From: Escherichia coli
GTDB taxonomy: Bacteria > Pseudomonadota > Gammaproteobacteria > Enterobacterales > Enterobacteriaceae
Assembly: GCF_013122565.1 (NCBI RefSeq)
Contig: NZ_CP053258.1
Length of the DNA stretch: 64,000 nt
Reading direction: 5' to 3' (one strand)
Shown piece after piece: positions 4,128-38,019 of the stretch. A program made the translations under genes and the position numbers. The notes beneath the pieces were generated by a model. The model did not search any database. It had not been told where the DNA came from and worked only from the letters and a program-made list of their open reading frames with translations. Each line of letters opens with the position of its first letter. Within the stretch, counting starts at the first letter, position 1.

Positions 4128-4702
4128 ACCGGGCCTCCGGTTGTATCGCCGCCTTTCAGGACGCCAGTATGCTGATGCGCATCAACCACGATCCCGTTAG
4201 AACTCATCGCTCCGCCGCCCTGGGTAACGCCACCATTGATCACAACTTCGCTGTTAATGCGCGTGCGGTCAGCCTCCAGTACAAACTCACTGGTTTTCAG
4301 GGTGATATTGTCAGCGGCCTCAATGACCATGGATTTGATGCCCCTGACATACCAGCGCCCGGTGGCGGGTTCGTATTCAAACCAGCCACCGTCTGGGTAC
4401 TCAACCACGTTGCCGTCCTCAGAGTCTGAAGGTGGTGGAAACTGATTTGAGTAGACAGCAGGCAGGGCAAACGCGGTTTCCAGATTGCCACCCAGGCTGA
4501 ACAGCACAACCTGCTCGCCCACAGACGGTTTCCACCAGGTGCGCGATTTGCCCGCGCGCAGTGTCAGCCAGTTAATCCAGTTGGTTTCGAGGTCGCCCGT
4601 TTTCACCCGACACAGCCAGTTTTCCCGGTCCACTTCGGTGACTACACCTGTGCGAATCAGATTGGTGATAAGGCGCATGATTTCGGTTAGTTGTGCATTC
4701 AT
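4124..4702 (-). CDS. Baseplate spike/assembly protein (P2 gpV-like)
   Basis: 192 aa; MNAQLTEIMRLITNLIRTGVV... aligns with P2 V N-terminus. Confidence 0.85.
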   Translation of the reverse strand: MNAQLTEIMRLITNLIRTGVVTEVDRENWLCRVKTGDLETNWINWLTLRAGKSRTWWKPSVGEQVVLFSLGGNLETAFALPAVYSNQFPPPSDSEDGNVVEYPDGGWFEYEPATGRWYVRGIKSMVIEAADNITLKTSEFVLEADRTRINSEVVINGGVTQGGGAMSSNGIVVDAHQHTGVLKGGDTTGGPV

Positions 4703-4750
4703 GTCGACGATATTTGCACAAACATATATTGTGGGACATTGAGTCAGAAA

Positions 4751-4768
4751 TGTATGACTTACTACACA
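4751..4768. promoter_or_regulatory. TGT-N12-ACA dyad (P2-type late promoter activator element) upstream of V
   Basis: tgtatgacttactacaca; P2 late promoters carry a TGT-N12-ACA dyad bound by Ogr-type activators. Confidence 0.3.
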
Positions 4769-4795
4769 ATGTTTATCCGCGCAAAGGAGTTACAG

Positions 4796-5701
4796 ATGAC
4801 ACAAATCGGTATCTATGGATATTGCTTCACGAAAGAATTTACTTTTAAAGGAGGGACACTGATACCTCGTTACAAATCCTTTAAGGAACTAAAAGAGAAT
4901 AAATGCGATGGAAGCGAATATGTATTAAGTGGATTTTTCTCTCCCGCACATGCTTCTGAAAACACCGTCACTCAAATAATTTATGATCTTTCAGCTGTTT
5001 TAAGTTTCATTGAACAAAAAAATGTAATCATATCAAACTTCCTAGAGGAACATGAAACACCTGAAAAGTTAGATAATAATTTCCCACTAAAATTGAAGTC
5101 AAAAAGAAAGTCATCACTAGGAATAATTGTTGAAGATTACTTCTCTGAAAAGAGTCGCTCAGCGTTCATTGAGCTTGCGATGGATAAACTTCATAGAAAT
5201 ATTAATTCTCATCAAAACCCTTTTAGAACTGCGTTCTATAAGTCTATATTTTCTTTTAGGGAAAGAATGGACTATGTAGATGTTAAATACTTCCTTAATT
5301 TCTCAGCATTAGAATCCCTGTGCAGATATATCGATAACGAGTCGACATCTAGTTATACACCACAAATAATTACAAAGGTTTTAAAAGATTATGGTTTTAA
5401 TGTATCTAAAGAAGGCAACCCTGTACCACAAAGAAACGTGATTCACTATTGCACGCTTCGAAACTCTCTATTCCACAATGGAAATTATATTGGATACATT
5501 AAGAAAGATGATCCAAGCAGTATCATTAAATTAAGTGATTATTATTCAAATCTAAATTTACTTTTACCTTTAGTATTAATGAAATATATAGGATTCGATG
5601 ATGGATTAATTAACTGGGACTCATGGATAGACTATGAACCATTTCTCGCCCTCAGGCCTAAAAACTTAACTCCATCGAATGGTAAACAATCAATTAGATA
5701 G
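4796..5701 (+). CDS. AT-rich cargo gene: hypothetical protein with Rx4H motif (HEPN-like, abortive-infection-like candidate)
   Basis: About 301 aa from MTQIGIYGYCF with AGGAG RBS upstream; low GC relative to flanks; antisense to the S-V tail operon; motif RNSLFH. Confidence 0.7.
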   Translation: MTQIGIYGYCFTKEFTFKGGTLIPRYKSFKELKENKCDGSEYVLSGFFSPAHASENTVTQIIYDLSAVLSFIEQKNVIISNFLEEHETPEKLDNNFPLKLKSKRKSSLGIIVEDYFSEKSRSAFIELAMDKLHRNINSHQNPFRTAFYKSIFSFRERMDYVDVKYFLNFSALESLCRYIDNESTSSYTPQIITKVLKDYGFNVSKEGNPVPQRNVIHYCTLRNSLFHNGNYIGYIKKDDPSSIIKLSDYYSNLNLLLPLVLMKYIGFDDGLINWDSWIDYEPFLALRPKNLTPSNGKQSIR

Positions 5702-8558: not shown

Positions 8559-9209
8559 TCAGCGGCTGTCATTGCGCAGTCTGCGCTCCAGCTGCTGTTT
8601 GTCTTTTTTCACGCCACAGCGGGGATCGAGCTGTAACGCATGGTTGAGATGATTAAGGGCGGAAGCCGGATTGCTTTCACTCAGGACAGCGCCAATCGCT
8701 TTATGCAGACGCGCCCGTGACTGGTCCGGCATATCCAGACCGTCTGTCAGCTCCAGCGTCTGCAGCAACAGATCGGCATCAAAGCCGGTGGCGGCAAGCA
8801 TTGCGCTCTGCGCGGCGTCTGCCATTTCCTCTGCCAGCACGGTCTGCACGTTGCGGTTACCCAGCGGCATCACCCAGCCATGACGCAGGGCATGACGCCC
8901 GATCTCCAGCGCCCCGGCATAATCTCCGGCATCAATACGCCACAGCATCACGTACATCAGCACGTCATCCTGTTGAGCGCCTCCGGCAGCCAGGACACCC
9001 TCTGCCCAGGCGGCGTACTTCGGCAGCAGCTCCACCTTGATTTCCGCTTTTTTGACCGTGGACTGAACGCCCTTGAGACGGCGGCGGTCTTCCGCCAGTT
9101 GCAGCAGCATCAGGTCATAGCCCGATGCGTGGCGAACACTGCCGCCCTCGCGGGCGGCCTGTTCAGCCTGAACGCGCAGGCGATGCTGCCGTGCGGGACT
9201 CAGGCTCAT
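8559..9209 (-). CDS. Terminase small (endonuclease) subunit (P2 gpM-like)
   Basis: 216 aa; synteny between N and L. Confidence 0.8.
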   Translation of the reverse strand: MSLSPARQHRLRVQAEQAAREGGSVRHASGYDLMLLQLAEDRRRLKGVQSTVKKAEIKVELLPKYAAWAEGVLAAGGAQQDDVLMYVMLWRIDAGDYAGALEIGRHALRHGWVMPLGNRNVQTVLAEEMADAAQSAMLAATGFDADLLLQTLELTDGLDMPDQSRARLHKAIGAVLSESNPASALNHLNHALQLDPRCGVKKDKQQLERRLRNDSR

Positions 9210-9212
9210 GGA

Positions 9213-10271
9213 TTACGCTCCGGTTTCGGCTGCGGCGGCGCTGAAATCACCAATCTGGATATTTTCCACCAGTGCGGCGCAGCGGTAGTCCTCAACCACA
9301 TAGGCTTCGTTAACGGATTCAAAGTTTTCAATCCGGTCACGTTTCGGGTTGTCGATAACTGAACGGCGGCGGGTGTCTTCCTGCCAGTAGATGGACAGGT
9401 TATCCAGACGGGTGATCAGCAGCGCATTCGGCGGGAAGAACGGCGCACGCACGGCCTGCAGGCCACCCATGCGTTTCTGACTGATGATCATATCGGCAGC
9501 CAGTTTTTCACTGTTTTCCTGCTCTTTGTTGACCAGCGGGAAATACTTGTCAGACAGCAGTTCACGACCGCAAATCACCACCAGATCGTCATCGTCCTGG
9601 TAGACCACGTCGATAAGCTCATTGACGGCATCCATCACCACGGCGTCCAGGTTGGCATATTCGCCACCTTTCCCGACTTTCACTGCGCCCGGTGTGGTTT
9701 CACCGCCCGTGGTGGTGCTGCCCATGACGTGATCCGGTGCATCCTCACGGATTTTCTGCAGCCAGCCTTTATTCACATCCTGCAGTAGCGGGTTTTCGCT
9801 ACGGTTGGAGGTTTTCGCACGCTTCACGCCGTTAAAGCCGATCATGATGCGGTCCAGTGCCTGACGTTTCACGATGGCGTCACGGATACGCACCTGAAAA
9901 TCCTGAAACTTCGCCCACAGGTCCAGCTTCGCGTAGGTCAGCACCGTGTCAAAGTTGGTCTGCTCGCATTTATATTCCACATCGACCATCAGCGTCGGAT
10001 CGACAGGTTCACGCTCTTTCGCGGTGGTATCAGTGGTTCCGGCAATGGTGCTGCCAACTCCCAGCCCCAGCAGCTGACCGGACTGCTCAGTCACTGGCGT
10101 GACGTTAATCAGCGTCAGGAAAGCGGCGGACTGCTGGATCTGGTCTTCCAGCGTCTGCTGCACAGACGGCTCCACGGTGAATTTGCTGGACAGTTCTTCA
10201 ACTGCCACACCGTTCAGACGCGCCAGCTGCTGCAGGTAAGCGTTAAAAGCAAAGCGGGTATTCTTCTTCAT
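9213..10271 (-). CDS. Major capsid protein (P2 gpN-like)
   Basis: 352 aa; synteny O-N-M. Confidence 0.9.
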   Translation of the reverse strand: MKKNTRFAFNAYLQQLARLNGVAVEELSSKFTVEPSVQQTLEDQIQQSAAFLTLINVTPVTEQSGQLLGLGVGSTIAGTTDTTAKEREPVDPTLMVDVEYKCEQTNFDTVLTYAKLDLWAKFQDFQVRIRDAIVKRQALDRIMIGFNGVKRAKTSNRSENPLLQDVNKGWLQKIREDAPDHVMGSTTTGGETTPGAVKVGKGGEYANLDAVVMDAVNELIDVVYQDDDDLVVICGRELLSDKYFPLVNKEQENSEKLAADMIISQKRMGGLQAVRAPFFPPNALLITRLDNLSIYWQEDTRRRSVIDNPKRDRIENFESVNEAYVVEDYRCAALVENIQIGDFSAAAAETGA

Positions 10272-10287
10272 CGGGTTTTGTGCTCCA

Positions 10288-11121
10288 TCAGCAATTGGTC
10301 AGAGTGTCAGCGGGGGCGTTACCGCCTGTTGCACGCTGGCGGTAGTCCTGGCGGCTGTCTTCATGACTTAGCTTGTCCACCAGTTCGTTAAAGGCGGTCA
10401 GCTGTGCCTGCAGGGCAGTCTCCAGCTCAGACAGGCGTTCTTCCTGCTCAGACAGGGATTTTTCGGTGCGTGCGCTCAGGTTCTGCTGCTCAGTGGCGAC
10501 CAGCTCCACGGCCTTATGCACATCAGAGAACCGGGCGTCATCGGACTGCTCTTTTTTGGTAAACAGCGCCGTGACGCGGGCAAACAGGGACGGTTTGTCG
10601 TCTTGGATTTCTTCCAGTTCGATCACCGTTTCCTCTGCAGCGGTAAAGAGATTGGCAGGATTCTGCTTGCGGTTTGCCAGCGGGTTATGGGCTGCACTGG
10701 CGCTGAATGTCAGCATTTCCGTACCCAGACTGGCAGGGTCATCAGTGGCAGCCAGGCCGACCAGGTAGGCTTTGCCCGTATCAGCGAACTTCGGGCTGAC
10801 TTCCATAGAGGTGAATAATTTCTGGCCTTTTTTCACCAGTTCCACCAGGGACTCCGTTGGCTCAACGTCGGCATACAGCGCCATCTTGCCTGCCAGCGGA
10901 CCTTCCGTGATTTCTTCAGCAAACAGCGCCGTCACCTTGCCGTAGCGGTTAAAGGTGCTGTCCGGCAGATAAGACTTGATGTGCTCAAGGTTAATCAGCG
11001 CGGTATACACCGCCGGGTTGTAGCTGGCTGCCATCTGTTCCAGCCATTCACGCTGGATTTCGCGTCCGTCGGTGGTGGCACCTTCCACCCCGATGCGAAA
11101 ACGCTTTGCTTTCACTGTCAT
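10288..11121 (-). CDS. Capsid scaffolding protein (P2 gpO-like)
   Basis: 277 aa; acidic/coiled-coil C-terminal part; divergent from P. Confidence 0.85.
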   Translation of the reverse strand: MTVKAKRFRIGVEGATTDGREIQREWLEQMAASYNPAVYTALINLEHIKSYLPDSTFNRYGKVTALFAEEITEGPLAGKMALYADVEPTESLVELVKKGQKLFTSMEVSPKFADTGKAYLVGLAATDDPASLGTEMLTFSASAAHNPLANRKQNPANLFTAAEETVIELEEIQDDKPSLFARVTALFTKKEQSDDARFSDVHKAVELVATEQQNLSARTEKSLSEQEERLSELETALQAQLTAFNELVDKLSHEDSRQDYRQRATGGNAPADTLTNC

Positions 11122-11263: not shown

Positions 11264-13030
11264 ATGAACACCACACTGACACCCGCAGATCTCGATCCCC
11301 GTCGGCAGGCCATGCTGCTGTACTTTCAGGGATACCGCGTAGCCCGCATTGCTGAAATGCTGGGCGAGAAAGTTGCAACCGTTCACAGCTGGAAAAAACG
11401 CGACAAGTGGGGTGACTATGGGCCGCTGGATCAGATGCAGCTCACCACCGCCGCACGCTACTGCCAGCTCATCATGAAGGAGCACAAAGAAGGGAAAGAT
11501 TTCAAAGAGATTGACCTGCTGGCGCGCCAGTCTGAGCGCCACGCGCGGATCGGCAAGTTTAACAATGGCGGCAACGAATCCGACTTAAACCCTAACGTCG
11601 CCAACCGCAACAAAGGCCCACGCCGTCAGCCGGAAAAGAATGTTTTCACCGATGAGCAGATTGAGAAGCTGGAAGAAATCTTCCATTCCTCCATGTTCAA
11701 CTACCAGCGCCACTGGTGGGAAGCCGGAAAAACCAACCGCATCCGCAACCTGCTGAAGTCACGCCAGATCGGCGCGACCTTTTACTTTGCCCGTGAAGCC
11801 CTGATTGACGCCCTGCTGACCGGACGTAACCAGATTTTCCTTTCCGCCAGCAAGGCACAGGCCCACGTCTTTAAGCAGTACATCATCGACTTCGCCAAAG
11901 AAGTGGAGGTGGAGTTGAAAGGCGATCCGATGGTGCTTCCTAACGGGGCCACGCTTTACTTCCTCGGCACCAATGCCCGCACGGCCCAGAGTTATCACGG
12001 CAACCTGTATCTGGATGAATATTTCTGGATACCGAAATTCCAGGAGCTGCGCAAAGTGGCTTCCGGTATGGCTATTCACAAGAAATGGCGACAAACCTAT
12101 TTTTCCACGCCATCCAGCCTGACACACAGTGCTTATCCGTTCTGGTCCGGTGCGCTATTCAACCGTGGGCGCAACAAAGCCGATAAGGTGGACATCGACC
12201 TGTCCCACAGCAATCTGGCCCCCGGCCTGCTGTGCGCAGACGGGCAATACCGCCAGATTGTCACCGTGGAAGATGCAGTGCGCGGCGGATGTAACCTGTT
12301 CGACCTCGATCAGTTACGCATGGAGTACAGCCCGGACGAATACCAGAACCTGCTGATGTGCGAGTTTGTGGACGATCTCGCGTCTGTGTTCCCACTCAGC
12401 GAGCTGCAGGCGTGCATGGTGGACAGCTGGGAAGTCTGGACCGACTTTCATGCACTGGCACTGCGCCCATTTGGCTGGCGCGAAGTGTGGATCGGTTATG
12501 ACCCGGCGAAAGGTACGCAGAACGGCGACAGTGCCGGATGCGTGGTGGTGGCACCGCCAGCCGTGCCGGGCGGCAAGTTCCGCATTCTTGAGCGTTACCA
12601 GTGGCGCGGGATGGACTTTCGCGCCCAGGCTGACGCCATCAAAAAACTGACCGAACAGTACAACGTGACCTATATCGGCATCGACTCAACCGGCGTTGGT
12701 CACGGGGTTTATGAGAACGTGAAAGCGTTCTTTCCTGCCGTCCGGGAGTTTGTCTACAACCCCAACGTTAAAAACGCCCTGGTACTCAAGGCCTACGACA
12801 TTATCAGCCACCGCCGTCTGGAGTTTGACGCCGGGCACACCGACATTGCGCAGTCATTCATGGCAATCCGTCGCGCCACCACCGCCAGTGGCAACCGCCC
12901 GACCTATGAAGCCAGCCGCAGCGAAGAAGCCAGCCACGCCGATCTGGCCTGGGCAACGATGCACGCACTGTTTAACGAACCGCTGCAGGGCGAATCCGCC
13001 AATACCAGCAATATTGTGGAGATTTTTTGA
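11264..13030 (+). CDS. Terminase large (ATPase) subunit (P2 gpP-like)
   Basis: 588 aa; divergent from O as in P2. Confidence 0.9.
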   Translation: MNTTLTPADLDPRRQAMLLYFQGYRVARIAEMLGEKVATVHSWKKRDKWGDYGPLDQMQLTTAARYCQLIMKEHKEGKDFKEIDLLARQSERHARIGKFNNGGNESDLNPNVANRNKGPRRQPEKNVFTDEQIEKLEEIFHSSMFNYQRHWWEAGKTNRIRNLLKSRQIGATFYFAREALIDALLTGRNQIFLSASKAQAHVFKQYIIDFAKEVEVELKGDPMVLPNGATLYFLGTNARTAQSYHGNLYLDEYFWIPKFQELRKVASGMAIHKKWRQTYFSTPSSLTHSAYPFWSGALFNRGRNKADKVDIDLSHSNLAPGLLCADGQYRQIVTVEDAVRGGCNLFDLDQLRMEYSPDEYQNLLMCEFVDDLASVFPLSELQACMVDSWEVWTDFHALALRPFGWREVWIGYDPAKGTQNGDSAGCVVVAPPAVPGGKFRILERYQWRGMDFRAQADAIKKLTEQYNVTYIGIDSTGVGHGVYENVKAFFPAVREFVYNPNVKNALVLKAYDIISHRRLEFDAGHTDIAQSFMAIRRATTASGNRPTYEASRSEEASHADLAWATMHALFNEPLQGESANTSNIVEIF

Positions 13031-14064
13031 TGGGAAAGAGTAAGAAGAACCGAGCTGCGGCGACGAAACAGATCCAGCTTAAAAGTCAAACTACAGCCGA
13101 AGCATTCAGCTTCGGCGATCCCGTTCCTGTTCTGGACCGCCGAGAATTACTGGACTATGTGGAATGCGTACAGATGGACCGTTGGTATGAGCCGCCCGTC
13201 AGCTTTGACGGACTGGCGCGCACCTTCCGCGCTGCAGTGCATCACAGTTCCCCGATTGCAGTAAAGTGCAACATTCTGACCAGTACCTACATCCCTCACC
13301 CGCTGCTCAGCCAGCAGGCTTTTTCACGTTTTGTGCAGGACTATCTGGTATTTGGTAACGCCTACCTGGAGAAACGCACGAACCGATTCGGTGAAGTTAT
13401 CGCCCTTGAGCCTGTGCTGGCAAAATACACCCGACGCGGGTTAGACCTGGATACCTACTGGTTTGTGCAATACGGCATGACTACACAGCCGTATCAGTTC
13501 ACGAAAGGCAGCATTTTTCACCTGATGGAACCGGATATCAACCAAGAGATCTACGGCCTGCCCGGTTATCTTTCTGCCATTCCGTCAGCCCTGCTCAACG
13601 AGTCCGCCACGCTGTTCCGCCGCAAGTATTACATTAACGGCAGCCACGCAGGCTTCATCATGTACATGACCGACGCCGCGCAGAACCAGGAGGATGTAAA
13701 CAACCTCCGTAACGCGATGAAAAGCGCCAAAGGACCAGGCAACTTCCGTAACCTGTTTATGTACTCGCCGAACGGCAAAAAGGACGGGCTTCAGATCATC
13801 CCATTGTCTGAAGTCGCGGCAAAGGATGAGTTTCTGAATATCAAAAATGTTAGTCGCGATGACATGATGGCGGCACACCGCGTGCCGCCGCAAATGATGG
13901 GGATTATGCCTAATAATGTTGGGGGGTTTGGGGATGTGGAGAAAGCGAGTATGGTATTTGTGAGGAATGAATTAATTCCTCTACAAAGGCGTTTAGAAGA
14001 GCTTAATTTGTGGCTAGAAGAGGAAGCCATAAAATTCAAACCATACAATTTATCAGATAATTAG
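13027..14064 (+). CDS. Portal protein (P2 gpQ-like)
   Basis: 345 aa; ATGA overlap with P. Confidence 0.9.
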   Translation: MMGKSKKNRAAATKQIQLKSQTTAEAFSFGDPVPVLDRRELLDYVECVQMDRWYEPPVSFDGLARTFRAAVHHSSPIAVKCNILTSTYIPHPLLSQQAFSRFVQDYLVFGNAYLEKRTNRFGEVIALEPVLAKYTRRGLDLDTYWFVQYGMTTQPYQFTKGSIFHLMEPDINQEIYGLPGYLSAIPSALLNESATLFRRKYYINGSHAGFIMYMTDAAQNQEDVNNLRNAMKSAKGPGNFRNLFMYSPNGKKDGLQIIPLSEVAAKDEFLNIKNVSRDDMMAAHRVPPQMMGIMPNNVGGFGDVEKASMVFVRNELIPLQRRLEELNLWLEEEAIKFKPYNLSDN

Positions 14065-14070
14065 AATCAT

Positions 14071-14108
14071 GGCCCTAGTATATTATCATTTTCACTAGGG
14101 CTTTCTTT
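14071..14108. terminator. Hairpin between convergent portal and RT genes (bidirectional terminator candidate)
   Basis: ggccctagt ... actaggg stem followed by ctttctttc. Confidence 0.4.
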
Positions 14109-15869
14109 CTATATGCTGCATATTTTTTTATAATGTTCAAAAACATCTTTAAAAGTGTTGAGTATTATTTCAAAACCACTAAAATCAACTTTTCGTTTTT
14201 TATCCCTAACTACTTTCACAGAGAAAACATGTTTCCCATATTCAGTTTTTGAGTCCCCATCGTTCTTTTTGTTAAATTTTTTACCACCAAGAATAGTTGA
14301 TAATACATCATGAGTAAAAAGATCTTCCATCGCAGTCTGCTCACCAGTAGCACTTAAAGGCGTTAGAATGATATAGAGATTTTTAAAGACATGGATAAAT
14401 CTCATTTTTCTCATTTTATTGGTATCATCGGGGCAGCTCTTAACATTATTTTTAAGGAAATTCAAAATCTCATTAGAACCAGAATCGTTGTCCAATACCA
14501 TGATAACCGGGTGCTTAGGAATGCTTCCATAGTAGCTTGAATATTCATCCATATATCTTTCGATGAATTTTTTAAGATCTGCGCTACCTCCAGACATATT
14601 AATAAAATAACTTGACTTCTCATCAGATTTAAAAATATTCAAGTTGATATCATTTCCTTTACCGTCTGTGCTTTTCTTGAGCAACTCAGGAAATTTGGCA
14701 GAAAGTGAACGAATAGCTGATTTTAAATATACTCGATCAGTTTTGCCTTCTGTCAAGATTGTCGGGGAAGCATGTCCATGAAAAAACTTGTAGTAAATAA
14801 ATTTACTATATGCCTTCTCTCGTACATTCAGCTTTAACCTGTAGTTTTTTAATGTAATATGAATAGGCGCATATTTTTCAGGCTGTTTACTTATTTTATC
14901 TTGTATGTTATTAAATTTATCAATCTGGTCAATAAACCCAAATCTTCCCTCTAGTTTTTCGATACTCCCCACGACTAGCTTACCATCTTCATCAGGTAGC
15001 TTATATTCTCCCTTACTATAAAGTGAATGAGCTAATGCTCTTGTTTTATTCGAATATTTCCTATCAACGTTAACAAATCTATTTATAGTAAGTCCCGTAA
15101 CTTCTTGTCTCGTGGATTTGTACGAGATCCTTGTTTTAGCATCATTAATATCAAAACCAGCACGTTTTATTTCACTGACAAGAATGCTCCCCAAGACAAC
15201 CCCCTCAGGAAGAGATATTGCCAAATCGGTAGGAAATTCTTTTTTATTAGTTGAAAACGTGATGTCATCGGCATAACGACTATATGAACAACCTAAACTC
15301 TTTGCTAATTTAGCTAATCTAATATCCATAATGCTACAAATTAAGTTTGTTATCACTGGAGAACACGGGCTACCCTGAGGCAAACTTCCCTTATAGCATG
15401 CGGCTTTAGCTAAAGTAGTGGCGACAATCGGATTTAATAAGAAATCCCTATTGGATAGGAAGTACCCTCTCACTCGCCCAAAATTAAAGCTTTTGAAAAA
15501 ATCCTTAAGATCAATATTGAGTATTATATTTTTCCCACGATGTCTGAAAGCATTGGAAATTATTGACTTATTTCTTTCAAAACCAAAGGAGTAATTGTTT
15601 TTAATTTTTTTAATTTTGAAAGTTTCATCTCTACACTCCATTAAAAGATCGGCTATTCGTCTTTGGAGATCTTTCAAACTATCTTCTGGCGCAGAAATCA
15701 ATCTGACTCCCTTACCTTTTTTTGGAATAGAGAAATCTTTATACTGATTATCAGTACCAATTCTGTAAAGAATATTCGTTAAAAACACCAACTTAACATC
15801 TAGCAATTTTGCCAAGTCAGCACGAGATGCTGCGACTTTCAAAAGTAGTAATTTAGAAGTTGCGACCAT
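14109..15869 (-). CDS. ret: Retron reverse transcriptase with C-terminal TOPRIM domain (RT-TOPRIM fusion; consistent with retron-Ec67 / Retron-Eco2 RT)
   Basis: 586 aa; RT motifs [23 protein letters not shown] (res 199-202); TOPRIM-like TEGKTD (373-378) and VLDNDSG (458-464); strongly AT-rich. Confidence 0.9.
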
Positions 15870-15904
15870 AATTATATTTTATCGTAGAAGTTAGTAAGAG
15901 AGGA

Positions 15905-16040
15905 AGAACGCATGTAGGCACTCCTTCGCACAGCACAACGGCCCTATAGCGACGAAACAAGGATGTCAGGGATGCGATTCCACCTGCCATTAAAATCACT
16001 GGTTGTGATACACAACCAACAAATCTGCCTACATGCGCAT
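15905..16040 (-). ncRNA. msr-msd: Retron msr-msd-like non-coding RNA locus flanked by a1/a2 inverted repeats
   Basis: 12-bp inverted repeat cgcatgtaggca at 15909-15920 and 16026-16037 with about 105 bp between them; internal hairpin ggttgtg-tat-cacaacc; a2 lies 40 nt upstream of the RT start. Confidence 0.5.
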
Positions 16041-16108
16041 AAATGAAACTACCATTTCAACGTCTTCATTTCCAGTAATATATTTCAAATATCTACACTG
16101 AGCGCGCG

Positions 16109-16127
16109 CTCGTATCCCCGCCACGCC
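16109..16127 (-). other. Candidate cos cohesive-end site
   Basis: Minus-strand GGCGTGGCGGGGATACGAG; first 13 nt match the 186/P2 cohesive end as I recall it (GGCGTGGCGGGGA...). Confidence 0.4.
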
Positions 16128-16171
16128 TGCCCGCTTTATGTAGTGGTTTTCATGCAGGTGCATGATCTACG

Positions 16172-16196
16172 CAAAAGCCCGCCAGTTCTGGCGGGC
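16172..16196 (-). terminator. Rho-independent terminator ending the A/tum early transcript
   Basis: Stem gcccgccag/tggcgggc with T-tract on the minus strand. Confidence 0.55.
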
Positions 16197-16469
16197 CTTA
16201 GCAAAAACGATCCTCAAACGATCATGCAATCTCATGCAGCATAGACATGCACAGACGAGTAAAGCGAATCGGACCTTACGCAAGGTGAACTCCTCAGCGG
16301 GCATAATCAGTATGTCGGAAGATCTCTAAAAATAAATAATTCGGTTAACAGGTATGCTTACAAAAGCATATATTTGATTAAAAATCATGTAAGGGGGAGG
16401 ATCTCAAACTGAATCGCCACGGGTTTTACAAATTTCGATAGTCTCTCTAACGTTTCGGCTGAGGTCAAA

Positions 16470-16895
16470 ATGAAAAGCTTTTACGTATTAATTTTAATTC
16501 TGGTTGCAAGCTTTGTTAGCGTCCCAGTTCAGGCGGTAACAGCTAAAAACTATGAGAAAGGAACTAAAGCTCAACAGAAATCAATATCTTACCTTTCATG
16601 TGCATTCTATGGCAGTAGCACACAATTAGATCCTAGCTACACGGAGCAAGTACCTACAGCCGATATCAAGATATTACAGAAAGCAGCTTACCACGCTTAC
16701 AACGATGCGCTCTCATACTTTGGCTATGAGGAACCAGATCACGAACAACGCATAATTGATTATGCTGAATTTGTGGCGTCGCAAGAAGCTGTGTTATGGG
16801 ATAAGCCGGGAATGAATGGAAAGCAGGTAACACTAATTGCTCGTTCTCTCTACAATGAGAGTAACTGTAACTTGTTACTGGACTCAATTAAGTAG
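16470..16895 (+). CDS. AT-rich cargo gene: small secreted protein of unknown function
   Basis: 141 aa; signal peptide MKSFYVLILILVASFVSVPVQA; GAGG RBS; low GC. Confidence 0.7.
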   Translation: MKSFYVLILILVASFVSVPVQAVTAKNYEKGTKAQQKSISYLSCAFYGSSTQLDPSYTEQVPTADIKILQKAAYHAYNDALSYFGYEEPDHEQRIIDYAEFVASQEAVLWDKPGMNGKQVTLIARSLYNESNCNLLLDSIK

Positions 16896-17054
16896 GAAAA
16901 AGATGGTATTTTGCCCGTAGTTTCAACCTTAATCTCCGAACCTGTCGCAGAACGGGCGTTCACTCATCAAATAAACGCCACACCTAACGCCTCACTGTAC
17001 TCGTTGTTCAACCTTGCTGACGCCAGAACCAAGTTCAGACGCCAGCAACTTTTC

Positions 17055-17288
17055 TTAATGCAGCCAGCTGTCGTCTTCCCACACCTTCTGCATAATCTTC
17101 ATCACTTGTTTTCTTTCTTCGTCCAGTTGCAGTCCGGTCAGTTCCACACCGTTAGAGCTACCTTTGCGGATGCGAATTACCGTTTTGGGATACAGGGGGC
17201 GCAGATTGCGGTAAAGCTCGGATTCAAGGGCGTCCAGGGTAGACTGGCTAATCTTCTGCTCTTTATCGATCATTATTTCAATGCGCAT
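17055..17288 (-). CDS. DinI-family protein (Tum antirepressor C-terminal-domain-like)
   Basis: Start trimmed to MRIEIMIDKEQ... (GAGGTG RBS); pattern MRIE...LDALESEL...WEDDSW resembles DinI. Confidence 0.7.
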   Translation of the reverse strand: MRIEIMIDKEQKISQSTLDALESELYRNLRPLYPKTVIRIRKGSSNGVELTGLQLDEERKQVMKIMQKVWEDDSWLH

Positions 17289-17298
17289 AAAGGTCACC

Positions 17299-17487
17299 TC
17301 AGCTGATGACATCCATTGAGCGGTTGTATTCGTGGGTTCTGATTTTTGCCATGAGTTCATCAGTCAATTCAGAAACCCACTGCAGAGCCAGCCCCTTCTC
17401 TTCATCACTACACTCACTAGCCGCTACAAGCTTAAGAAAAAAATCAATGCGCTGGAGCTTCAAAGACTCCAAAAAATAGTCCTGCAT
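17299..17487 (-). CDS. Small protein upstream of DinI-like ORF (possible N-terminal part of a Tum-like antirepressor)
   Basis: 62 aa; directly downstream of a LexA box; separated from the DinI ORF by a frame change. Confidence 0.5.
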   Translation of the reverse strand: MQDYFLESLKLQRIDFFLKLVAASECSDEEKGLALQWVSELTDELMAKIRTHEYNRSMDVIS

Positions 17488-17529
17488 CTTTCCTCCTATG
17501 ACACCAAAGCAATACTGTATATATAACCA

Positions 17530-17545
17530 CTGTTTATATTTACAG
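17530..17545. promoter_or_regulatory. LexA box (SOS operator)
   Basis: CTGTttatatttACAG fits CTGT-N8-ACAG with AT-rich spacer; a second half-site tactgtatatata lies just upstream. Confidence 0.6.
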
Positions 17546-17639
17546 TATATAATAATCTTACTGATGTAAAACGTTTTTTTACGTTCATCAGCCTGAAATG
17601 CCTGGTATTATTAAGAGCACGAATTGTTAACCCGCGTAA

Positions 17640-20054
17640 TTAATACAGGTTCCGCCACTTATCATCTTCCTGCAAACGCTGGTTCCGATAGAAGATACGC
17701 AGGCCTGCTCCTGACGGAATACTGCCGCCGCGAAGGAGTAAATCGACCTCTTTCTCGCTGCCATCAAATCCTCTGGACTTCAGTTCATAGACGAGCTGCT
17801 GTCGCTGATGGTCTGTAATTCGCTGTTTGTAGTCTTTACGCCGTTTCGGTTTCACCAGGCGTAACCTTGCAGCCAGTTCCCGGCGCTCTTTTTTGCTCAT
17901 ACTGTGCAGGTATTCGTGCAACTCCTTGTCATCCATGCGGGTAATGTCCGTTCTGGTATCCCCATCAGCTGATTTGTCTTTCCCTTGTTGGTTCAAATTT
18001 TCAGCAAGGGGACAGTTATTGCCACGAGTCCAAGGGGCGCAAGCGCCCTGGTCGGCTACCGCCTCCTGAACGTCAACGGCTTTACGAACCATTTTCCACT
18101 TCACTGCATGAGTGCAGATCTTGCCCTCTGCAATGGGTGACCAGATGCCATAAATACGAATGCCGTGATCGCCATAGGCGGTCGGCTCTTCGTTAATTTC
18201 ATAAGCAGTTCTGATGAGGTGATATTTGCGGGGAACCAGTACGCCGCCCTGCTTCATGATGTAAGTGGCAAAACAACCAGCATCAGCAGCAGCCAGGATT
18301 GCATCAAGGCGCGGGTTATCCAGTACCGGCGCACCTGCTTTTTTGTCCCCCTGTTGCCTTGCCGCCTGACCAGCCAACAATCGCAGTTCACGGTAAGCCT
18401 GACGCCCCGGAATGCCAAAGAAGCGGAATTGCTGAACACGATGCAAAGACGCCCAGGCATTCACGTATTCAGCGTTATCACGCAGAGATTTACCCGTTTC
18501 CTTGCTGATCTCGCCAGCCAGACCACGCCCGTCAATGTTCTTACTGATGTATTTCGCGATGTAGCTTGTTGGCGTACCTTTGCGCGGGTTTATCAGCTCA
18601 GACTTAAAGCGTGGTCCCGTGTTATTACCCAGCTCCTCGCGGTCTTCACGAATGGCAAACTTACGCAACAAAGCAGTAATGGCTCGGCGATCTTTTTTGC
18701 GCATAAAACACAACAGGTGCCAGTGCACTGTACCGTCATGATGCGGCTCAGCCACCCGCACGCCATACCAGCGCAATCCGGCTTTGTGCATCGCTTTACG
18801 AAATGCAGCAAACATGCCGACCAGATAATCACTGCTTTGTCTTACCGTCGCGTTTGTCCAGGTCGGGTTTGGTCTGCCGTTATTTAGCGTGGAATGGAAA
18901 CGTGACGGACAGGTGATGGTGTAGAAAACGGCGCAGTCACCGCGCATTTCCGCGATAAGCTCCAGACCTTTAACACAGGCCATCATCTCATTGCGGCGAT
19001 GCGCAGGGTTGCTGCTGCTGGCGTTTACCACGTCTTCCATATCCAGCGTGTCGCCGTCTTCGTTCACCAGTTCATGAGAACGAAAAAACTCCAGCGACTT
19101 ACGGCGCTGCTCACGTTTATGCATCACGGCTTCATAGCTGACATAGGGAGATGCTTTTTTGCTGACCAGGCAGACAGCGCGCAACTGCTCTTCCCGCCAT
19201 TCGCAACGCATCTTCCATAATTTCCGATACCACCAGTCGGCGCACAACATACGCGCCAGCGAACCCGGAATGAGTTCATAGGGCACGGGTTTACGGCGGT
19301 TTCTTTTCCGGCGGAGTTGCTCAAACGCAGGTGGGATGACATCCAGTCGCAGGGTTTCTGCTGCCACCCTTTCCCATGTCTTGCGGATTTCTTCTGGCTT
19401 AACGTCATCGGTGGCATACAAATCGCCACAAGCTGCATCAAGGCACATGCTCATATGCGCAGCTACCAGGGTGGACAGGCGTTTCACCTGATCCTGACTC
19501 ATTTCAGGCAGGATCAGCAGGCCGTCCAGCCCTTCCTGGCTCGCCATAAAGCGAAAAGCAGTGGATAGCTGACTGTCGCGTACATGCTCCAGCCGTTCCA
19601 GACATGGCTTAATCGTCTCACGCAAATAGCGGGAATAAGCCTTTGGCCTGCCCAGGCTGCTGAAGTATTCAATACGTTGCATCAGCGGCTTGCTGATATG
19701 GGAAGGCTGGGCGTTAACGTCCGCCAGAATGACCATGTCTGGATTAAAACGCTGCTGCTCATGCGCCAGCTTTGCCCGGCTAATGAGCTTATCCTGCTCT
19801 ATTTCGCGTTGGACAGGATCACGGGATTCATTAAAGAAATAACGCTCCCAGACCTGATCACTCAGAGCCTCGCGGCGCAGTTGTTCCTGCTCGTTATCGG
19901 CAGCGTACAGAGTGATCAGGTTTGAAAGCGCAGAAACCGGCGCAACTTCCGCCGGGTCCAGATAAGGGTTAATGGCCTTTTTCGGGCTGTTCCATGAGAA
20001 TGCTGCGGCGACCTCGTTAAAGCCGCTGCAGTTGTTCATATCATCATGGCTCAT
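17640..20054 (-). CDS. Replication initiation protein (P2 gpA-like rolling-circle nickase)
   Basis: 804 aa; position downstream of early genes; stop/start overlap with the methylase gene. Confidence 0.9.
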
Positions 20055-20908
20055 GCACGCACTCCGTACATGGCAGAACTATCCACGCCACGCGAAGGAT
20101 CAAATCCCACCCAGCAGCGCGCCCCGGAAACAGCAATGATTTCTGTTGCAGATTTACTCTCGCCAGCCGACACGCCGATGCTGCGTTTTGCCTTGATGTA
20201 GTGGTGAGTGAAATTGCGATACAGCGAACGAATCAGGGATGTGTCACTGTTAGAAACAATGACCGGATGTCCTTCAGATGCTCGATGTTCAAGAACGGAT
20301 GCCAGGTGATACTGGTCATCTTCAGTGAAACCATCAGTGTGATAGCCGGAAAACGTACCGTCATACGGCGGATCGCAATACACCACATCCCCCGCCTTCA
20401 ACATCGCCAGCGTTTCATCAAAGCTGGCGCAGATAAACGTTGCCCGCTGGGCTTTTTCTGCAAATGCGCGAATTTCTTTTTCAGGGAAATACGGATTTTT
20501 ATAATTACCGTAGGGAATGTTGAAATGCCCGCTCTTGTTATAGCGACATAAACCACGGTAACCGTGACGATTGAGATACAGGAAATATACCGCTTTCATG
20601 AAATCAGTAATTTCAGTGGAGTAATTAAACTCCTGCCTTATGTTGTAATAAGCCACCTCCCTGTTTGCGATCTCAAATAAAACTCTGGCGCGAGATATAA
20701 ACGATTCACAATCAGCGGCAACCTTTTTATAGAGGTTGATTAAATCAAGATTAATATCCGCAACCAGATAGCTTGGATAATCCGTCTCCATCATCACAGC
20801 ACAGGAACCCGCGAAAGGTTCAACCAGTCGCGGGCCAGCAGGAAGGTGTTTTTTCAGTTCGGACATAATTGCGGTTTTATTTCCCGCCCATTTCAGGATG
20901 GTGCTCAT
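20051..20908 (-). CDS. DNA adenine methyltransferase (Dam family, orphan)
   Basis: Start trimmed to [11 protein letters not shown]; motif I-like FAGSCAV and motif IV DPPY (VYCDPPYDG). Confidence 0.85.
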
Positions 20909-21132
20909 ACAGCACCTCCGTTGTAATGTTTGCCTTTCAGCTCTGCGATTTCCTGACAGGTAATGCAAAGCTGCACTCCCGGAATGGCGCGGCGTCGTGC
21001 TGGCGGAATTGGCGCTTCACATTCAATGCAAAGTACGCGTGACACGCCCGGTGATTTGGCACGGGCTGCACGGATATGGCGCTGGCGTTCTTCTTCAACG
21101 CGCTGCTGTACGAGATCCATTGCATCAGCCAT
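20905..21132 (-). CDS. DksA/TraR-family C4 zinc-finger protein
   Basis: 75 aa; CIECEAPIPPARRRAIPGVQLCITCQ (CxxC-N17-CxxC). Confidence 0.75.
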   Translation of the reverse strand: MADAMDLVQQRVEEERQRHIRAARAKSPGVSRVLCIECEAPIPPARRRAIPGVQLCITCQEIAELKGKHYNGGAV

Positions 21133-23054: not shown

Positions 23055-23651
23055 ATGTCAACATCAAAGTACCCAAGTGAGATCAAAATAAATCCCAATA
23101 AAGGTGGTAAGGCTGCGATTGAGCGATTAGTCGAAGCCTATGGCTTTACGACACGACAGGCTTTAGCTGATCACTTGGAAGTATCAAAAAGCACACTAGC
23201 GAACAGGTATTTGCGGGATACATTTCCTGCTGACTGGATAATCCAATGTGCTCTTGAAACAGGAACCTCCCTCAAATGGTTAACTACCGGACAAGGCCTT
23301 AAGCAAAGCTCGCTGACAGCAGCTACAGAAGAGCTTGTTAAGTTTCGCCTTGCCGCAGGCAAAATGATTGAAGACGGTTCATATGTCTTCGATTCATCAT
23401 TTCTTCCTGCAAACCTTTCATCACCAATTGTTATTCAGGATGGACTCGTCACATACATTTGTGATCAAAAATTTTCTGAAGTACTTGATGGAAACTGGTT
23501 AATCAATATCGACGGAACCTATTCCATTCGAAAAATCACAAGGCTTCCTAAAGGAATGATTAAAATTACAACAGCAGAGAATAGCTTTGAATGTGCATTT
23601 TCTGATATTGAAGTGGTTGCTTGTATAAGAAGTACAATAGTCTCGAATTAA
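23055..23651 (+). CDS. cI: CI-like immunity repressor (186 CI type)
   Basis: 198 aa; position between switch region and int; N-terminal HTH-like segment. Confidence 0.7.
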   Translation: MSTSKYPSEIKINPNKGGKAAIERLVEAYGFTTRQALADHLEVSKSTLANRYLRDTFPADWIIQCALETGTSLKWLTTGQGLKQSSLTAATEELVKFRLAAGKMIEDGSYVFDSSFLPANLSSPIVIQDGLVTYICDQKFSEVLDGNWLINIDGTYSIRKITRLPKGMIKITTAENSFECAFSDIEVVACIRSTIVSN

Positions 23652-23671: not shown

Positions 23672-25348
23672 ATGAATTCATTTGCCATCGTTATACTCTT
23701 ATTAGCATTTCTCGCCCCTGTTCTAGCTGTAATATTATTTAAACAAAGTAAAAAACACAAAGCGGCTATAGATAACCTGACAGCTAACAACATAGCCCTT
23801 TCTAACCAACTGATTGAAAATCAAGAAAAACTAGCACAGACCGTACGAGAATTATCAGATCTTGAAGGGCGAGCAGCACCATTGTGGCAATACGAAGAAT
23901 TGCACAGCGCAGTAATGGATGCAGAGAATAAGATAAAAAATGCGGACTCAATAGCCAAGCAAAAAATAGATGAAGCCCAAATTAAGGCGGCTAAAACAGT
24001 AAACGAAGCAAATTATCAAGCTCAGATAACAATAAGCAACGCTAATAGCGAAGCTATAGCAATCACCAAAGACGCTCGCGATGCACGCCTGAAAGCCAAA
24101 GAACGTCTTGATAATGCTAATAATAAAGCAAATGAGCTAATCTCAAATGCTAATGACAATGCAGTAAAAATTATTTCTGATGCAGAAGAAAGAGCAAAGG
24201 AGATTGCTGGTTCAGCATATGAAGCTAAAGAGTTTGCAGAAAAATATGAAGCAGTTGCAAAATCAATGAAAAATAAAATTGAAGGTTATGGTGATGAATG
24301 GATCATCCCTAACCGTAGTGTACTTGATGAGCTGGCAGAAAATTATGAATTTACAGATGCAGGCAAGGAATTACAAAAAGCCAGAGAGTTAACCAAATCA
24401 TTAATAAAAACTAATAAAGCTGCTTCGTGTGATTATGTTGAGCAAAACAGGCGTAATACTGCCATAAACTTTGTTTTGGATGCCTTCAATGGAAGAGTTG
24501 ACAGTATTTTATCAAAAGTCAAACACAACAATTTTGGAAAACTTTCCCAAGAAATAAAAGATGCATTTCAACTAGTAAATTACAATGGCTCTGCCTTTAG
24601 GTCCGCAAAAATAAGTGACATCTATCTTCAGGCAAGACTCAACGAGCTAAAATGGGGTGTAGCAGTTAATGAAATTATGCTCGAAGAAAAAGAAGAGCAA
24701 AGAAGGATTAAAGAACAGCTTCGTGAAGAGGAAAGAGCTCGTAGAGAATATGAAAAAGCGATAAAAGAAGCTGAAAAAGAAGAAAAAGCTATTCAGCAAG
24801 CTATAAATAAAGCAACGAAAGAACTTATGCTTGCAAATGAAGAACAACGCTTAGCTTTAGAGCAAAAAATAGCTGAACTACAGTTAAAATATGAAGAAGC
24901 TGAAGCTAAAAATCAACGAGCTATTTCTATGGCTCAACAAACCAGATCAGGCCACGTCTATATCATTAGTAATATTGGTTCATTTGGCGAAGATGTATAT
25001 AAAATTGGAATGACACGCCGCCTTGAACCACTTGATCGTGTTCGTGAACTCGGAGATGCTAGTGTTCCTTTTTCGTTCGATGTTCATGCGATGATTTATA
25101 GTGATGATGCACCATCATTAGAAAACCATCTGCATAAAGTTTTCAACGAAAAGCAGGTCAATAAAATTAACTCACGAAAAGAGTTTTTTAACGTAAATTT
25201 AAAAGAAATCAAATCAGTTATTGAAGACATGAACATCAACGCCCACTGGACAATGTTTGCAGAGGCGAAAGAATATAGAGAGTCTCTAGCTATTGAGCAG
25301 GAGCGCAAAGCAGCCACTTCCGCCAACGATGAACTACATGTTGCTTAG
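23672..25348 (+). CDS. AT-rich cargo gene: membrane-anchored coiled-coil protein with C-terminal T5orf172 (GIY-YIG-like) domain; DUF4041-type architecture; defense candidate
   Basis: 558 aa; N-terminal TM helix, long K/E/A-rich coiled coils, C-terminal GHVYIISNIGSFGEDVYKIGMTRRLEPLDRVRELGDASVPFSFDV; co-directional with cI and int. Confidence 0.85.
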   Translation: MNSFAIVILLLAFLAPVLAVILFKQSKKHKAAIDNLTANNIALSNQLIENQEKLAQTVRELSDLEGRAAPLWQYEELHSAVMDAENKIKNADSIAKQKIDEAQIKAAKTVNEANYQAQITISNANSEAIAITKDARDARLKAKERLDNANNKANELISNANDNAVKIISDAEERAKEIAGSAYEAKEFAEKYEAVAKSMKNKIEGYGDEWIIPNRSVLDELAENYEFTDAGKELQKARELTKSLIKTNKAASCDYVEQNRRNTAINFVLDAFNGRVDSILSKVKHNNFGKLSQEIKDAFQLVNYNGSAFRSAKISDIYLQARLNELKWGVAVNEIMLEEKEEQRRIKEQLREEERARREYEKAIKEAEKEEKAIQQAINKATKELMLANEEQRLALEQKIAELQLKYEEAEAKNQRAISMAQQTRSGHVYIISNIGSFGEDVYKIGMTRRLEPLDRVRELGDASVPFSFDVHAMIYSDDAPSLENHLHKVFNEKQVNKINSRKEFFNVNLKEIKSVIEDMNINAHWTMFAEAKEYRESLAIEQERKAATSANDELHVA

Positions 25349-37835: not shown

Positions 37836-38019
37836 TTAATCTAAAGGCAGATCTAACAAGGATATTGTTCTTCGATCTGCCTCTACTACCCTTCCCGATG
37901 TCCTACCCTTACGCACAAAATCCCCTGACGCATAAATCGAGAAAAATGAATCGTACTCGAGGCAACTCTCACTTTTTCACACCAAATTAAAGTTTTGATC
38001 GCAATTACTTGAAATAAGC

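What the first reader, a model, noticed from the sequence alone, without database searches (positions are those of the whole stretch)
13900..14108. Compositional break in the last part of the portal gene suggests the cargo insertion replaced the native 3' end of Q
The final stretch of Q (roughly the last 50 codons) switches abruptly to AT-rich sequence similar to the adjacent retron island, then ends in a hairpin shared with the convergent RT gene. This looks like a recombination junction inside Q rather than at a gene boundary.
Basis: seen in the sequence. Interest (0 to 1): 0.3.

Follow-up and report, generated by a model that had tools for sequence, protein, structure and literature searches.

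The report
Portal gene tail swapped with retron
The last 37 codons of this prophage's portal gene belong to the swappable, AT-rich retron defence cassette next to the cos site, so the recombination junction lies inside the gene; this refines a known phage defence hotspot and is not a new kind of element.

Summary
GC falls from 0.53 in the body of portal gene Q to 0.33 in its last 114 nt. That matches the adjacent retron (0.34) and is lower than any 114-nt window in 8 kb of late genes.

The break is at 13950/13951 (codon 308 of 344), not 13900. Three comparisons fix the junction:
- L014 has a 99.5% identical Q body but a different tail and cargo from 13950 onward.
- L088 and L093 have Q bodies about 7% diverged but carry this tail, hairpin, retron and msr/msd at about 100% identity.
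- Their last mismatches lie at 13911 (L088) and 13947/13952 (L093).

The exchanged cassette is 13951-16101. It ends 7-8 nt from the 19-nt cos end, and that right boundary is identical in 58 alleles.

Among 86 relatives every cargo type has its own AT-rich Q tail and its own terminator hairpin. Tail and cargo were never found in discordant combinations. The replaced tail still encodes the conserved C-terminal portal helix.

The cargo is an Ec67-family (RT-Toprim, type I-C) retron in the known P2/186-like cos-proximal hotspot. The one refinement is that the left junction is inside Q, not after its terminator as the literature states. Interest is modest.

The parts
13030..13950 (+). Body of portal gene Q (codons 1-307), part of the phage backbone
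   Evidence: Matches Pfam Phage_portal and TIGR01540 portal_PBSX (363.7 bits, cutoff 166). It is 90-98% nt identical to relatives carrying other cargo. GC is 0.527.
13912..13953 (.). Interval containing the left recombination junction
   Evidence: Against L088 (same cassette, other backbone) the last mismatch is at 13911. Against L093 the last mismatches are at 13947 and 13952. Against L014 (same backbone, other cassette) the first mismatch is at 13950. In at least 15 other same-cassette pairs the last Q-body mismatch lies at 13938-13950.
13951..14064 (+). Q tail: codons 308-344 plus the stop. AT-rich and inherited with the cargo. It encodes the C-terminal portal helix.
   Evidence: GC is 0.325 and GC3 is 0.316. 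It is 100% identical in L088 although the adjacent Q body there is only 90% identical. Nucleotide diversity among 78 distinct Q genes rises from 0.05-0.10 to 0.28-0.56. Residues V309, F310, N313, Q319, N326, W328 and Y341 are invariant. It lies within the portal family models, which cover up to residue 335-336. Residues 301-329 are predicted helical with pLDDT 78-91.
14071..14102 (.). Hairpin between the convergent Q and RT genes; probable terminator of the P-Q operon, possibly bidirectional
   Evidence: The fold has dG -18.1 kcal/mol with z = -5.7 on the + strand, and is followed there by UUUCUUUCU. On the - strand z = -5.5 with a weaker U tract. The simple terminator scan did not call it because the loop is 14 nt. 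Nearly every other cassette allele has its own, different GC-rich hairpin right after its Q stop.
14109..15869 (-). Retron reverse transcriptase fused to Toprim (Ec67 family, type I-C), 586 aa
   Evidence: PADLOC RT-Toprim_I-C gives E = 6e-213. NCBIfam NF038237 retron_Ec67_fus gives 685.9 bits against a cutoff of 450. Pfam RVT_1 also matches. The YADD motif is read directly at about 15265-15279. The exact protein is recorded on 119 contigs and named 'retron Ec67 family'.
15908..16038 (-). Retron non-coding RNA (msr-msd), closed by the 13-bp a1/a2 inverted repeat, with a CAGA branch-G motif
   Evidence: a1 is GCGCAUGUAGGCA (16038-16026) and a2 is UGCCUACAUGCGU (15920-15908). The fold has dG -53.2 kcal/mol with z = -3.6. 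CAGA is the Ec67-type branch motif according to PMC6868368. Rfam gave no hit.
16039..16101 (-). Right end of the cassette, presumably the retron promoter region
   Evidence: It is identical in L088 and L090-L099. It is unrelated between alleles, with column conservation of 0.3-0.5. Promoter function is inferred only.
16102..16156 (-). Conserved cos island. The 19-nt cohesive end GGCGTGGCGGGGATACGAG lies at 16127-16109 on the - strand, followed by CGCGCGCT.
   Evidence: It is identical to the annotated putative cos of phage Cartapus and similar to the P2 and 186 cos sites. In 58 alleles homology starts at exactly the same base, G16102. E. coli prophages without this retron match at 99.9% from 16101-16103 onward. 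Beyond about 16157 a second variable region begins.

Best explanation
The window holds a 186/P2-like prophage of E. coli. The slot between portal gene Q and the cos site is a defence-gene hotspot.

The unit that is exchanged between phages is not just the cargo. It is a 2.15-kb cassette (13951-16101) made of:
- the last 37 codons of Q,
- a cassette-specific terminator hairpin,
- the Ec67-family RT-Toprim retron gene,
- its msr/msd RNA gene.

The cassette was placed on this backbone by homologous recombination with another P2-like phage or prophage. The left crossover fell in the last stretch of Q that is still similar enough to recombine (13912-13950). The right limit is the conserved 55-nt cos island, or for linear virion DNA the physical end of the genome, in which case one crossover in Q would be enough.

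The tails of different cassettes are only about 55-65% identical in DNA. They therefore behave as heterologous DNA and always travel with their cargo. Purifying selection keeps the helix-forming residues, so the chimeric portal still works.

Shown: the junction position, co-inheritance of tail and retron across three backbones, complete tail-cargo linkage, and the fixed right boundary at cos.

Inferred: that the exchange is by homologous recombination; that the tails are AT-rich because they share the history of the AT-rich cargo (low-GC donor phages, or AT drift where recombination is suppressed); and that the hairpin terminates the P-Q transcript.
For: Composition:
- The break lies at 13950.

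Junction mapping:
- L014 has the same Q body (0.5% divergence). From 13950 on it has a different tail (45% divergence) and different cargo.
- L088 has 0 mismatches in 13912-14437 and one in the whole cassette, but only 90.4% identity in 13700-13950.
- L093 has the same cassette in a Q body that is 6.7% diverged, with mismatches up to 13947.

Population pattern:
- There were 3321 locus pairs. In 60 the tails were >=95% identical and the cargo was the same. In 3261 the tails were <80% identical and the cargo was different or only partly shared. No pair was discordant.
- Tail GC correlates with cargo GC (Spearman 0.58, p = 2.6e-6).
- Nucleotide diversity and AT content rise over the last ~45 codons, while key residues stay invariant.
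- Each allele has its own hairpin.
- The right boundary is the same base in 58 alleles.
- Same-cassette pairs share upstream identity tracts of variable length, with last mismatches from 13416 to 13950. This is what recombination predicts.

Controls and context:
- P2 and 186 have no cargo between Q and cos, and their tails have GC 0.52-0.55.
- The Ec86 prophage of E. coli B shows the same anatomy.
- The hotspot, and a proposal of cos-end plus homologous recombination exchange, are published (PMC9122126).
Against: - No donor phage with a uniformly AT-rich portal gene matching this tail was found. The origin of the AT-rich tails is therefore unexplained.
- Many independent pairs break within a few nt of codon 308. 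This is sharper than a simple model of crossovers spread along Q would suggest, although it is expected if the tail itself counts as heterology.
- The IMG/VR loci are the best 80 of more than 600 and are not phylogenetically independent.
- No experiment shows recombination, portal function or termination.
Confidence: 0.8

Rival explanations
1. Cassettes are inserted or exchanged by a site-specific or terminase-dependent mechanism that cuts at fixed points. One point would be at Q codon 307/308 and the other 7-8 nt from the cohesive end. Homologous recombination would not be involved.
For: - The right boundary is the same base in 58 alleles.
- Many same-cassette pairs differ up to 13938-13950.
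- Window-versus-relative changepoints cluster at 13941-13951.
Against: - The two junctions share no significant direct or inverted repeat. The best match is 6 nt, reached in 235 of 300 shuffles.
- The cassette encodes no recombinase; only the RT-Toprim gene is present.
- Shared tracts upstream of the junction vary from 0 to more than 500 nt, and diversity rises as a gradient rather than a step.
- The fixed right edge is explained equally well by selection for a minimal cos site.
Confidence: 0.07
2. There was no exchange. The portal C-terminus simply evolves fast in place, through relaxed constraint or diversifying selection such as escape from portal-sensing immunity, and drifts towards AT.
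For: - Exposed positions of the tail differ in 60-90% of pairwise comparisons, while the Q body is 98% identical at protein level.
- Tails within this one lineage differ as much from each other (median 62% aa identity) as they do from P2 (62%) or 186 (57%).
Against: - The tail is 100% identical between the window and L088/L093, whose Q bodies differ by about 7%. This is the opposite of fast in-place evolution.
- No intermediate tails (80-95% identity) were seen among 3321 pairs.
- Synonymous sites shift composition together with the cargo.
- Diversifying selection on top of exchange is not excluded.
Confidence: 0.05
3. The AT-richness is a by-product of the amino-acid composition of the portal C-terminus (rich in K, N, I and E) and marks no junction.
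For: The tail encodes many Lys, Glu, Asn and Ile residues.
Against: - P2 and 186 encode the homologous helix with GC 0.52-0.55.
- Alleles L014 and L027 do so at GC 0.44-0.53.
- GC3 drops from 0.64 to 0.32.
- The break coincides to the base with the loss of identity to L014.
Confidence: 0.02

Closest known systems
Cos-proximal defence hotspot of P2-like phages, between gpA and gpQ (Rousset et al. 2022, PMC9122126; 2026 preprint 10.64898/2026.02.27.708500)
   Same: - The location is the same: between the portal gene and replication gene A, next to cos.
- Otherwise near-identical prophages carry unrelated, AT-rich defence cargo there.
- Exchange via cos ends plus one homologous crossover has been proposed.
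   Different: - Those papers delimit the hotspot by whole core genes, and the 2026 preprint reports almost no linkage between defence genes and core genes.
- Here the last 37 codons of the core gene Q are in complete linkage with the cargo.
- The hotspot also resolves into two independently assorting cargo regions, separated by a 55-nt conserved cos island.
Retrons Ec67 and Ec86 in a 186-related prophage (Dodd & Egan 1996, as summarised in PMC6868368)
   Same: - A retron lies between the packaging/portal gene and cos of a 186-like prophage.
- The RT is 586 aa, the same length as the published Ec67 RT.
- The branch motif is CAGA, as in Ec67.
- The prophage carries a dam-type methylase gene (20051-20968; annotated as such in relatives).
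- The Ec86 locus of E. coli B has the same layout.
   Different: - The published description places the replaced ~180 bp between cos and the terminator of the packaging gene, that is, downstream of the gene.
- Comparison with close relatives, rather than with 186 (about 65% identical), puts the left junction 114 nt inside the portal ORF and shows that the terminator is cassette-specific.
- Whether this RT is Ec67 itself or a close allele was not verified.
Hitch-hiking of flanking core-gene sequence next to a hypervariable locus, e.g. gnd beside the E. coli O-antigen cluster (from general knowledge, not tested here)
   Same: Diversity peaks in the part of a conserved gene that abuts a non-homologous, selected, frequently exchanged locus, and decays with distance.
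   Different: - The affected tract is very short (about 110-250 nt).
- It reaches near-saturation divergence.
- It takes on the base composition of the cargo.

Membership tests
Retron type I-C / Ec67 family (RT-Toprim) | Retron-type reverse transcriptase with a YADD catalytic motif | tested here: met
   Pfam RVT_1 gives E = 4e-27. YADD is read directly from the sequence at about 15265-15279 on the - strand.
Retron type I-C / Ec67 family (RT-Toprim) | Full-length match to the curated RT-Toprim fusion family model, above its cutoff | tested here: met
   NCBIfam NF038237 gives 685.9 bits against a cutoff of 450, covering residues 10-580. PADLOC RT-Toprim_I-C gives E = 6e-213.
Retron type I-C / Ec67 family (RT-Toprim) | msr-msd gene upstream of the RT, closed by a1/a2 inverted repeats, with a branching G | tested here: met
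   A 13-bp a1/a2 stem is followed by G within CAGA, and structured msr and msd hairpins are present. The CAGA motif is that of Ec67. No Rfam model matched.
Retron type I-C / Ec67 family (RT-Toprim) | Production of msDNA and anti-phage activity | not testable with these tools
   Requires experiment.
P2-like cos-proximal defence hotspot | Located between portal gpQ and replication gpA, adjacent to cos | tested here: met
   The order is Q 13030-14064, cos 16109-16127, gpA 17640-20054.
P2-like cos-proximal defence hotspot | Content varies between otherwise near-identical phages | tested here: met
   At least 57 different cassettes were found among 86 loci whose Q bodies are 95-100% identical at protein level.
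Phage portal protein (P2 gpQ / PBSX type) | Full-length match to the portal family model, including the C-terminal region | tested here: met
   TIGR01540 gives 363.7 bits (cutoff 166), with residues 52-335 covering profile positions 1-319 of 320. The replaced tail lies inside the model. Portal function is not testable here.
Rho-independent terminator (analogue of P2 tQ / 186 tW) | GC-rich stem-loop followed by a U tract just after the gene | tested here: inconclusive
   A stable 9-bp stem is followed by UUUCUUUCU on the + strand. The loop is 14 nt, and the consensus scan did not call it. P2 and 186 have annotated terminators at the equivalent place.

The most novel reading that the evidence does not exclude
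The C-terminal helix of the portal may not be a passive hitch-hiker. It could be a hypervariable module that is functionally matched to, or co-selected with, the neighbouring defence cargo. Examples would be variation that avoids portal-sensing immunity, or that avoids self-triggering of the phage's own defence system.

Alternatively, the tail may be a built-in control. A piece of a core structural gene has taken on the cargo's base composition. That would suggest the AT-richness of defence islands comes from a regional mutational or recombinational process (AT drift where recombination is suppressed), not from selection on the defence genes themselves.
Probability: 0.12. Interest if true: 0.6.

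Novelty: already known. Interest (0 to 1): 0.3.

Why it matters
It corrects a detail of a textbook case. Retrons Ec67 and Ec86 are described as replacing DNA between cos and the terminator of the packaging gene. In fact the exchanged unit starts 114 nt inside the portal gene and brings its own terminator.

Practical consequences:
- Hotspot-mining pipelines that delimit cargo by whole core genes will misplace the left border.
- They will also miss the fact that the portal's last 37 codons are a perfect marker of cargo identity.
- Portal-based phylogenies of P2-like phages should drop the 3' end.

Conceptually, a fragment of a core structural gene that shares the cargo's AT-rich composition offers a handle on why defence islands are AT-rich. 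The element itself, an Ec67-family retron in the P2/186 hotspot, is well known.

Tried and rejected
- Rfam at permissive E-value over 13800-17700 gave no hit. No retron RNA family model matched.
- A donor of the AT-rich tail was not found.
  - blastn and tblastn of the tail against 50,697 phage records found nothing closer than Cartapus (78% nt, 81% aa). No low-GC host phage stood out.
  - An exact 27-mer of the tail was absent from 100,044 species-representative genomes and from JGI metagenomes.
  - It occurred in only one IMG/VR contig, L088.
  - RT peptide patterns found no relative in the species representatives.
- None of 5,426 complete RefSeq E. coli genomes carries this cassette at megablast sensitivity. 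The best RT match there is an Ec67-family allele at about 78-79% nt identity, about 71% at protein level.
- PDB sequence search with Q gave no hit.
- AlphaFold on a 50-sequence alignment gave a poor model (mean pLDDT 38). Only the tail helix 301-329 was confident, so no fold search was run.
- Pseudo-cos or repeat at the junctions: the resemblance between GGGGAT...GAGAAAGCGAG in Q and the cos sequence is not above chance. Rejected.
- The GC-skew spike at 13850-14000 is just the G-rich codons for GGFGDVEK. It belongs to the backbone and was not pursued.
- My first attempt to translate Q used the wrong frame. It was corrected.

Full report
**Context.** The window carries an E. coli chromosome segment; gsiABC at 44-47 kb is 99.3% identical to E. 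coli genomes. It contains a P2/186-like prophage lying in reverse orientation to the P2 map:
- capsid genes on the - strand at 8559-11121;
- terminase P at 11264-13030 (+);
- portal Q at 13030-14064 (+);
- a 586-aa gene on the - strand at 14109-15869;
- a cos-like site at 16109-16127;
- replication gene A at 17640-20054 (-);
- a 186-type CI repressor and an integrase further on.

The 586-aa protein is a retron reverse transcriptase fused to Toprim, of the Ec67 family (type I-C). PADLOC gives E = 6e-213 and NCBIfam NF038237 gives 686 bits against a cutoff of 450. Upstream of it lies an msr-msd gene closed by a 13-bp a1/a2 stem, with the Ec67-type CAGA branch motif.

**Checking the observation.** GC is 0.527 (GC3 0.635) in Q codons 1-307. 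It is 0.325 (GC3 0.316) in the last 114 nt, equal to the retron region (0.343). No 114-nt window in 8 kb of late genes is that AT-rich (minimum 0.439), and z = -4.7. A two-segment likelihood model puts the break at 13950. The stretch 13900-13950 still has backbone composition, so the affected part is 37 codons plus the stop, not about 50. The hairpin at 14071-14102 is real (dG -18 kcal/mol, z = -5.7). It sits in the 44-nt spacer, 6 nt from each of the two convergent stop codons.

**Where the junction is.** Three comparisons fix it.
- IMG/VR locus L014 has a Q body 99.5% identical to the window and is identical through 13949. From 13950 on it diverges by about 45% and is followed by unrelated cargo.
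- IMG/VR locus L088 has the opposite pattern. Its Q is 94% identical in 13030-13699 and 90.4% identical in 13700-13950, with the last mismatch at 13911. There is then a single mismatch from 13912 to 16910, which covers the tail, hairpin, RT, msr/msd and cos.
- Locus L093, an NCBI draft genome, has the same cassette in a Q body that is 6.7% diverged, with mismatches up to 13947 and one at 13952.

The left junction therefore lies at codons 307/308, within 13912-13953. On the other side, E. coli prophages without this retron become 99.9% identical from 16101-16103 onward. The exchanged unit is 13951-16101, which is 2151 nt.

**This is the rule in the lineage.** I retrieved 80 IMG/VR relatives of Q (93-96% protein identity) and added five annotated relatives.
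- Q-body GC is 0.51-0.54 in all of them. The last 120 nt have GC 0.26-0.53, mostly below 0.45.
- There are 59 distinct tail DNA sequences (52 distinct tail proteins). Each is followed by cargo of a different length, 525-3504 nt to cos.
- Nucleotide diversity among 78 distinct Q genes is 0.03-0.10 along the body. It then climbs through 0.20, 0.28, 0.36, 0.48 and 0.56 over the last 45 codons, while GC3 falls from about 0.65 to 0.26.
- Residues V309, F310, N313, Q319, N326, W328 and Y341 stay invariant.
- Tail and cargo were never found in discordant combinations. Of 3321 locus pairs, 60 had tails >=95% identical and all of these shared cargo. The other 3261 had tails <80% identical and different or only partly shared cargo. 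There were no discordant pairs and no intermediate tails.
- Tail GC tracks cargo GC (Spearman 0.58, p = 2.6e-6).
- Nearly every allele has its own, unrelated GC-rich hairpin just after its own Q stop, so the terminator belongs to the cassette.
- Tails of this one lineage are as different from each other (median 62% aa identity) as from P2 (62%) or 186 (57%). The Q bodies are 98% identical.
- P2 and 186 have no cargo between Q and cos, and their tails have GC 0.52-0.55.
- The classical Ec86 locus of E. coli B shows the same anatomy: tail GC 0.40, its own hairpin, and the same cos boundary.

**The right boundary and cos.** In all 58 alleles examined, homology resumes at the same base (G16102). 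That is 7-8 nt beyond the 19-nt cohesive end GGCGTGGCGGGGATACGAG, which is identical to the annotated putative cos of phage Cartapus. The conserved island is only about 55 nt long (16102-16156). Beyond it a second variable region starts. The same retron cassette is found combined with different right-arm genes: SIR2 plus DUF87 in L091, DUF6694 in L095, and other ORFs elsewhere. In the linear virion the retron cassette would therefore sit at the extreme left end of the genome.

**Mechanism.** The best-supported reading is allelic cassette exchange by homologous recombination between P2-like genomes. The left crossover falls in the last recombination-competent part of Q. The right limit is at the cos island, or for linear DNA at the molecule's end, so that a single crossover in Q would be enough. 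Same-cassette pairs share upstream identity tracts of very different lengths, with last mismatches from 13416 to 13950. This fits recombination. The tails are too diverged (35-45% mismatches) to recombine, so they behave as part of the heterology and remain locked to their cargo. Selection on the portal keeps the helix residues; the tail lies inside the portal family models and is predicted helical. Rousset et al. proposed cos-end plus homologous exchange for this hotspot.

What remains unexplained is why all the tails are AT-rich and near-saturated in divergence. I found no low-GC donor phage. Import from unsampled low-GC P2-like phages, and AT drift in a recombination-suppressed flank, both remain open.

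**Rivals.**
- A site-specific or terminase-driven mechanism is suggested by the sharp common boundaries. However, the junctions share no repeat above chance, the cassette has no recombinase, and tract lengths vary.
- Pure in-place fast evolution is contradicted by the 100% identical tail on backbones that are about 7% diverged.
- An amino-acid-composition artefact is contradicted by the GC3 drop and by GC-normal homologous tails.

**Comparison with what is known.** The hotspot between gpA and gpQ next to cos is published (PMC9122126; the 2026 preprint). Retrons Ec67 and Ec86 at this site have been known since Dodd & Egan 1996. [quoted passage not shown] The exact RT protein is already in NCBI on 119 contigs, named as an Ec67-family retron. 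The element is therefore already known.

The refinement I could not find in the papers searched has three parts:
- the left junction lies inside the portal ORF;
- the terminator is cassette-specific;
- the portal's last 37 codons are in complete linkage with the cargo.

By contrast, the 2026 preprint reports almost no linkage between defence genes and whole core genes. The RT length (586 aa), the CAGA motif, the dam-type methylase gene and the map position near gsiABC are compatible with this being retron Ec67 itself. That rests partly on memory and was not verified.

**Caveats.**
- The 80 IMG/VR loci are the best of more than 600 matches and are not independent samples.
- Alignment in the last few codons involves indels.
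- The changepoint model is a simple two-rate model.
- Recombination, portal function and termination are inferred, not demonstrated.

**Verdict.** The system is known, and the refinement is a modest one. Interest is 0.3.

Noticed in passing
window 16157-17640; loci L090-L099: A second variable region starts about 30 nt beyond cos on the gene-A side. The same retron cassette is paired with different genes there: SIR2_2 plus DUF87 in L091, DUF6694 in L095, and 225-243-aa ORFs in others. In the window this region holds ORFs 16470-16895 and 16911-17306, which have no Pfam or PADLOC hit, plus dinI-like genes annotated on the - strand in relatives. Cos is thus a 55-nt conserved island between two independently assorting cargo regions.
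   Followed up: partly
window 23672-25345 (+): An AT-rich (GC 0.35-0.39) 558-aa gene lies between the CI repressor (23055-23648) and the integrase (25431-26483). It matches the defence gene PD-Lambda-1 (PADLOC E = 3e-120; Pfam DUF4041 plus T5orf172/MUG113). This is a second defence cargo in the same prophage, at the integrase-proximal site.
   Followed up: partly
window 4691-5698 (+): An AT-rich (GC about 0.38) 336-aa ORF is embedded among GC-rich tail genes. It gave no convincing Pfam, NCBIfam or PADLOC hit. It may be cargo at a late-gene hotspot comparable to Z/fun of P2.
   Followed up: partly
window 13060-13089 (Q codons 11-20): A small variable patch lies near the N-terminus of the portal (nucleotide diversity 0.13, amino-acid difference 0.26), within an otherwise 98% conserved protein.
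   Followed up: no
L098 (GCA_051179775.1): This is a degraded prophage. The same retron cassette and only the 3' part of Q (identity lost upstream of about 13450) lie next to a resolvase and tail genes. The cassette persists in a rearranged or defective element.
   Followed up: no
loci L005/L006/L024 and L035/L062: Two further RT-Toprim alleles (70.6% and 55% protein identity to the window's RT) sit in the same slot. Their own Q tails are 65% and 56% identical to the window's tail, so tail divergence roughly parallels RT divergence. This is suggestive of long co-divergence, but the range is small.
   Followed up: partly
window 38000-43000: A lower-GC stretch (0.40-0.44) lies in the host chromosome, with large - strand ORFs (38301-42598). 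It was not examined.
   Followed up: no
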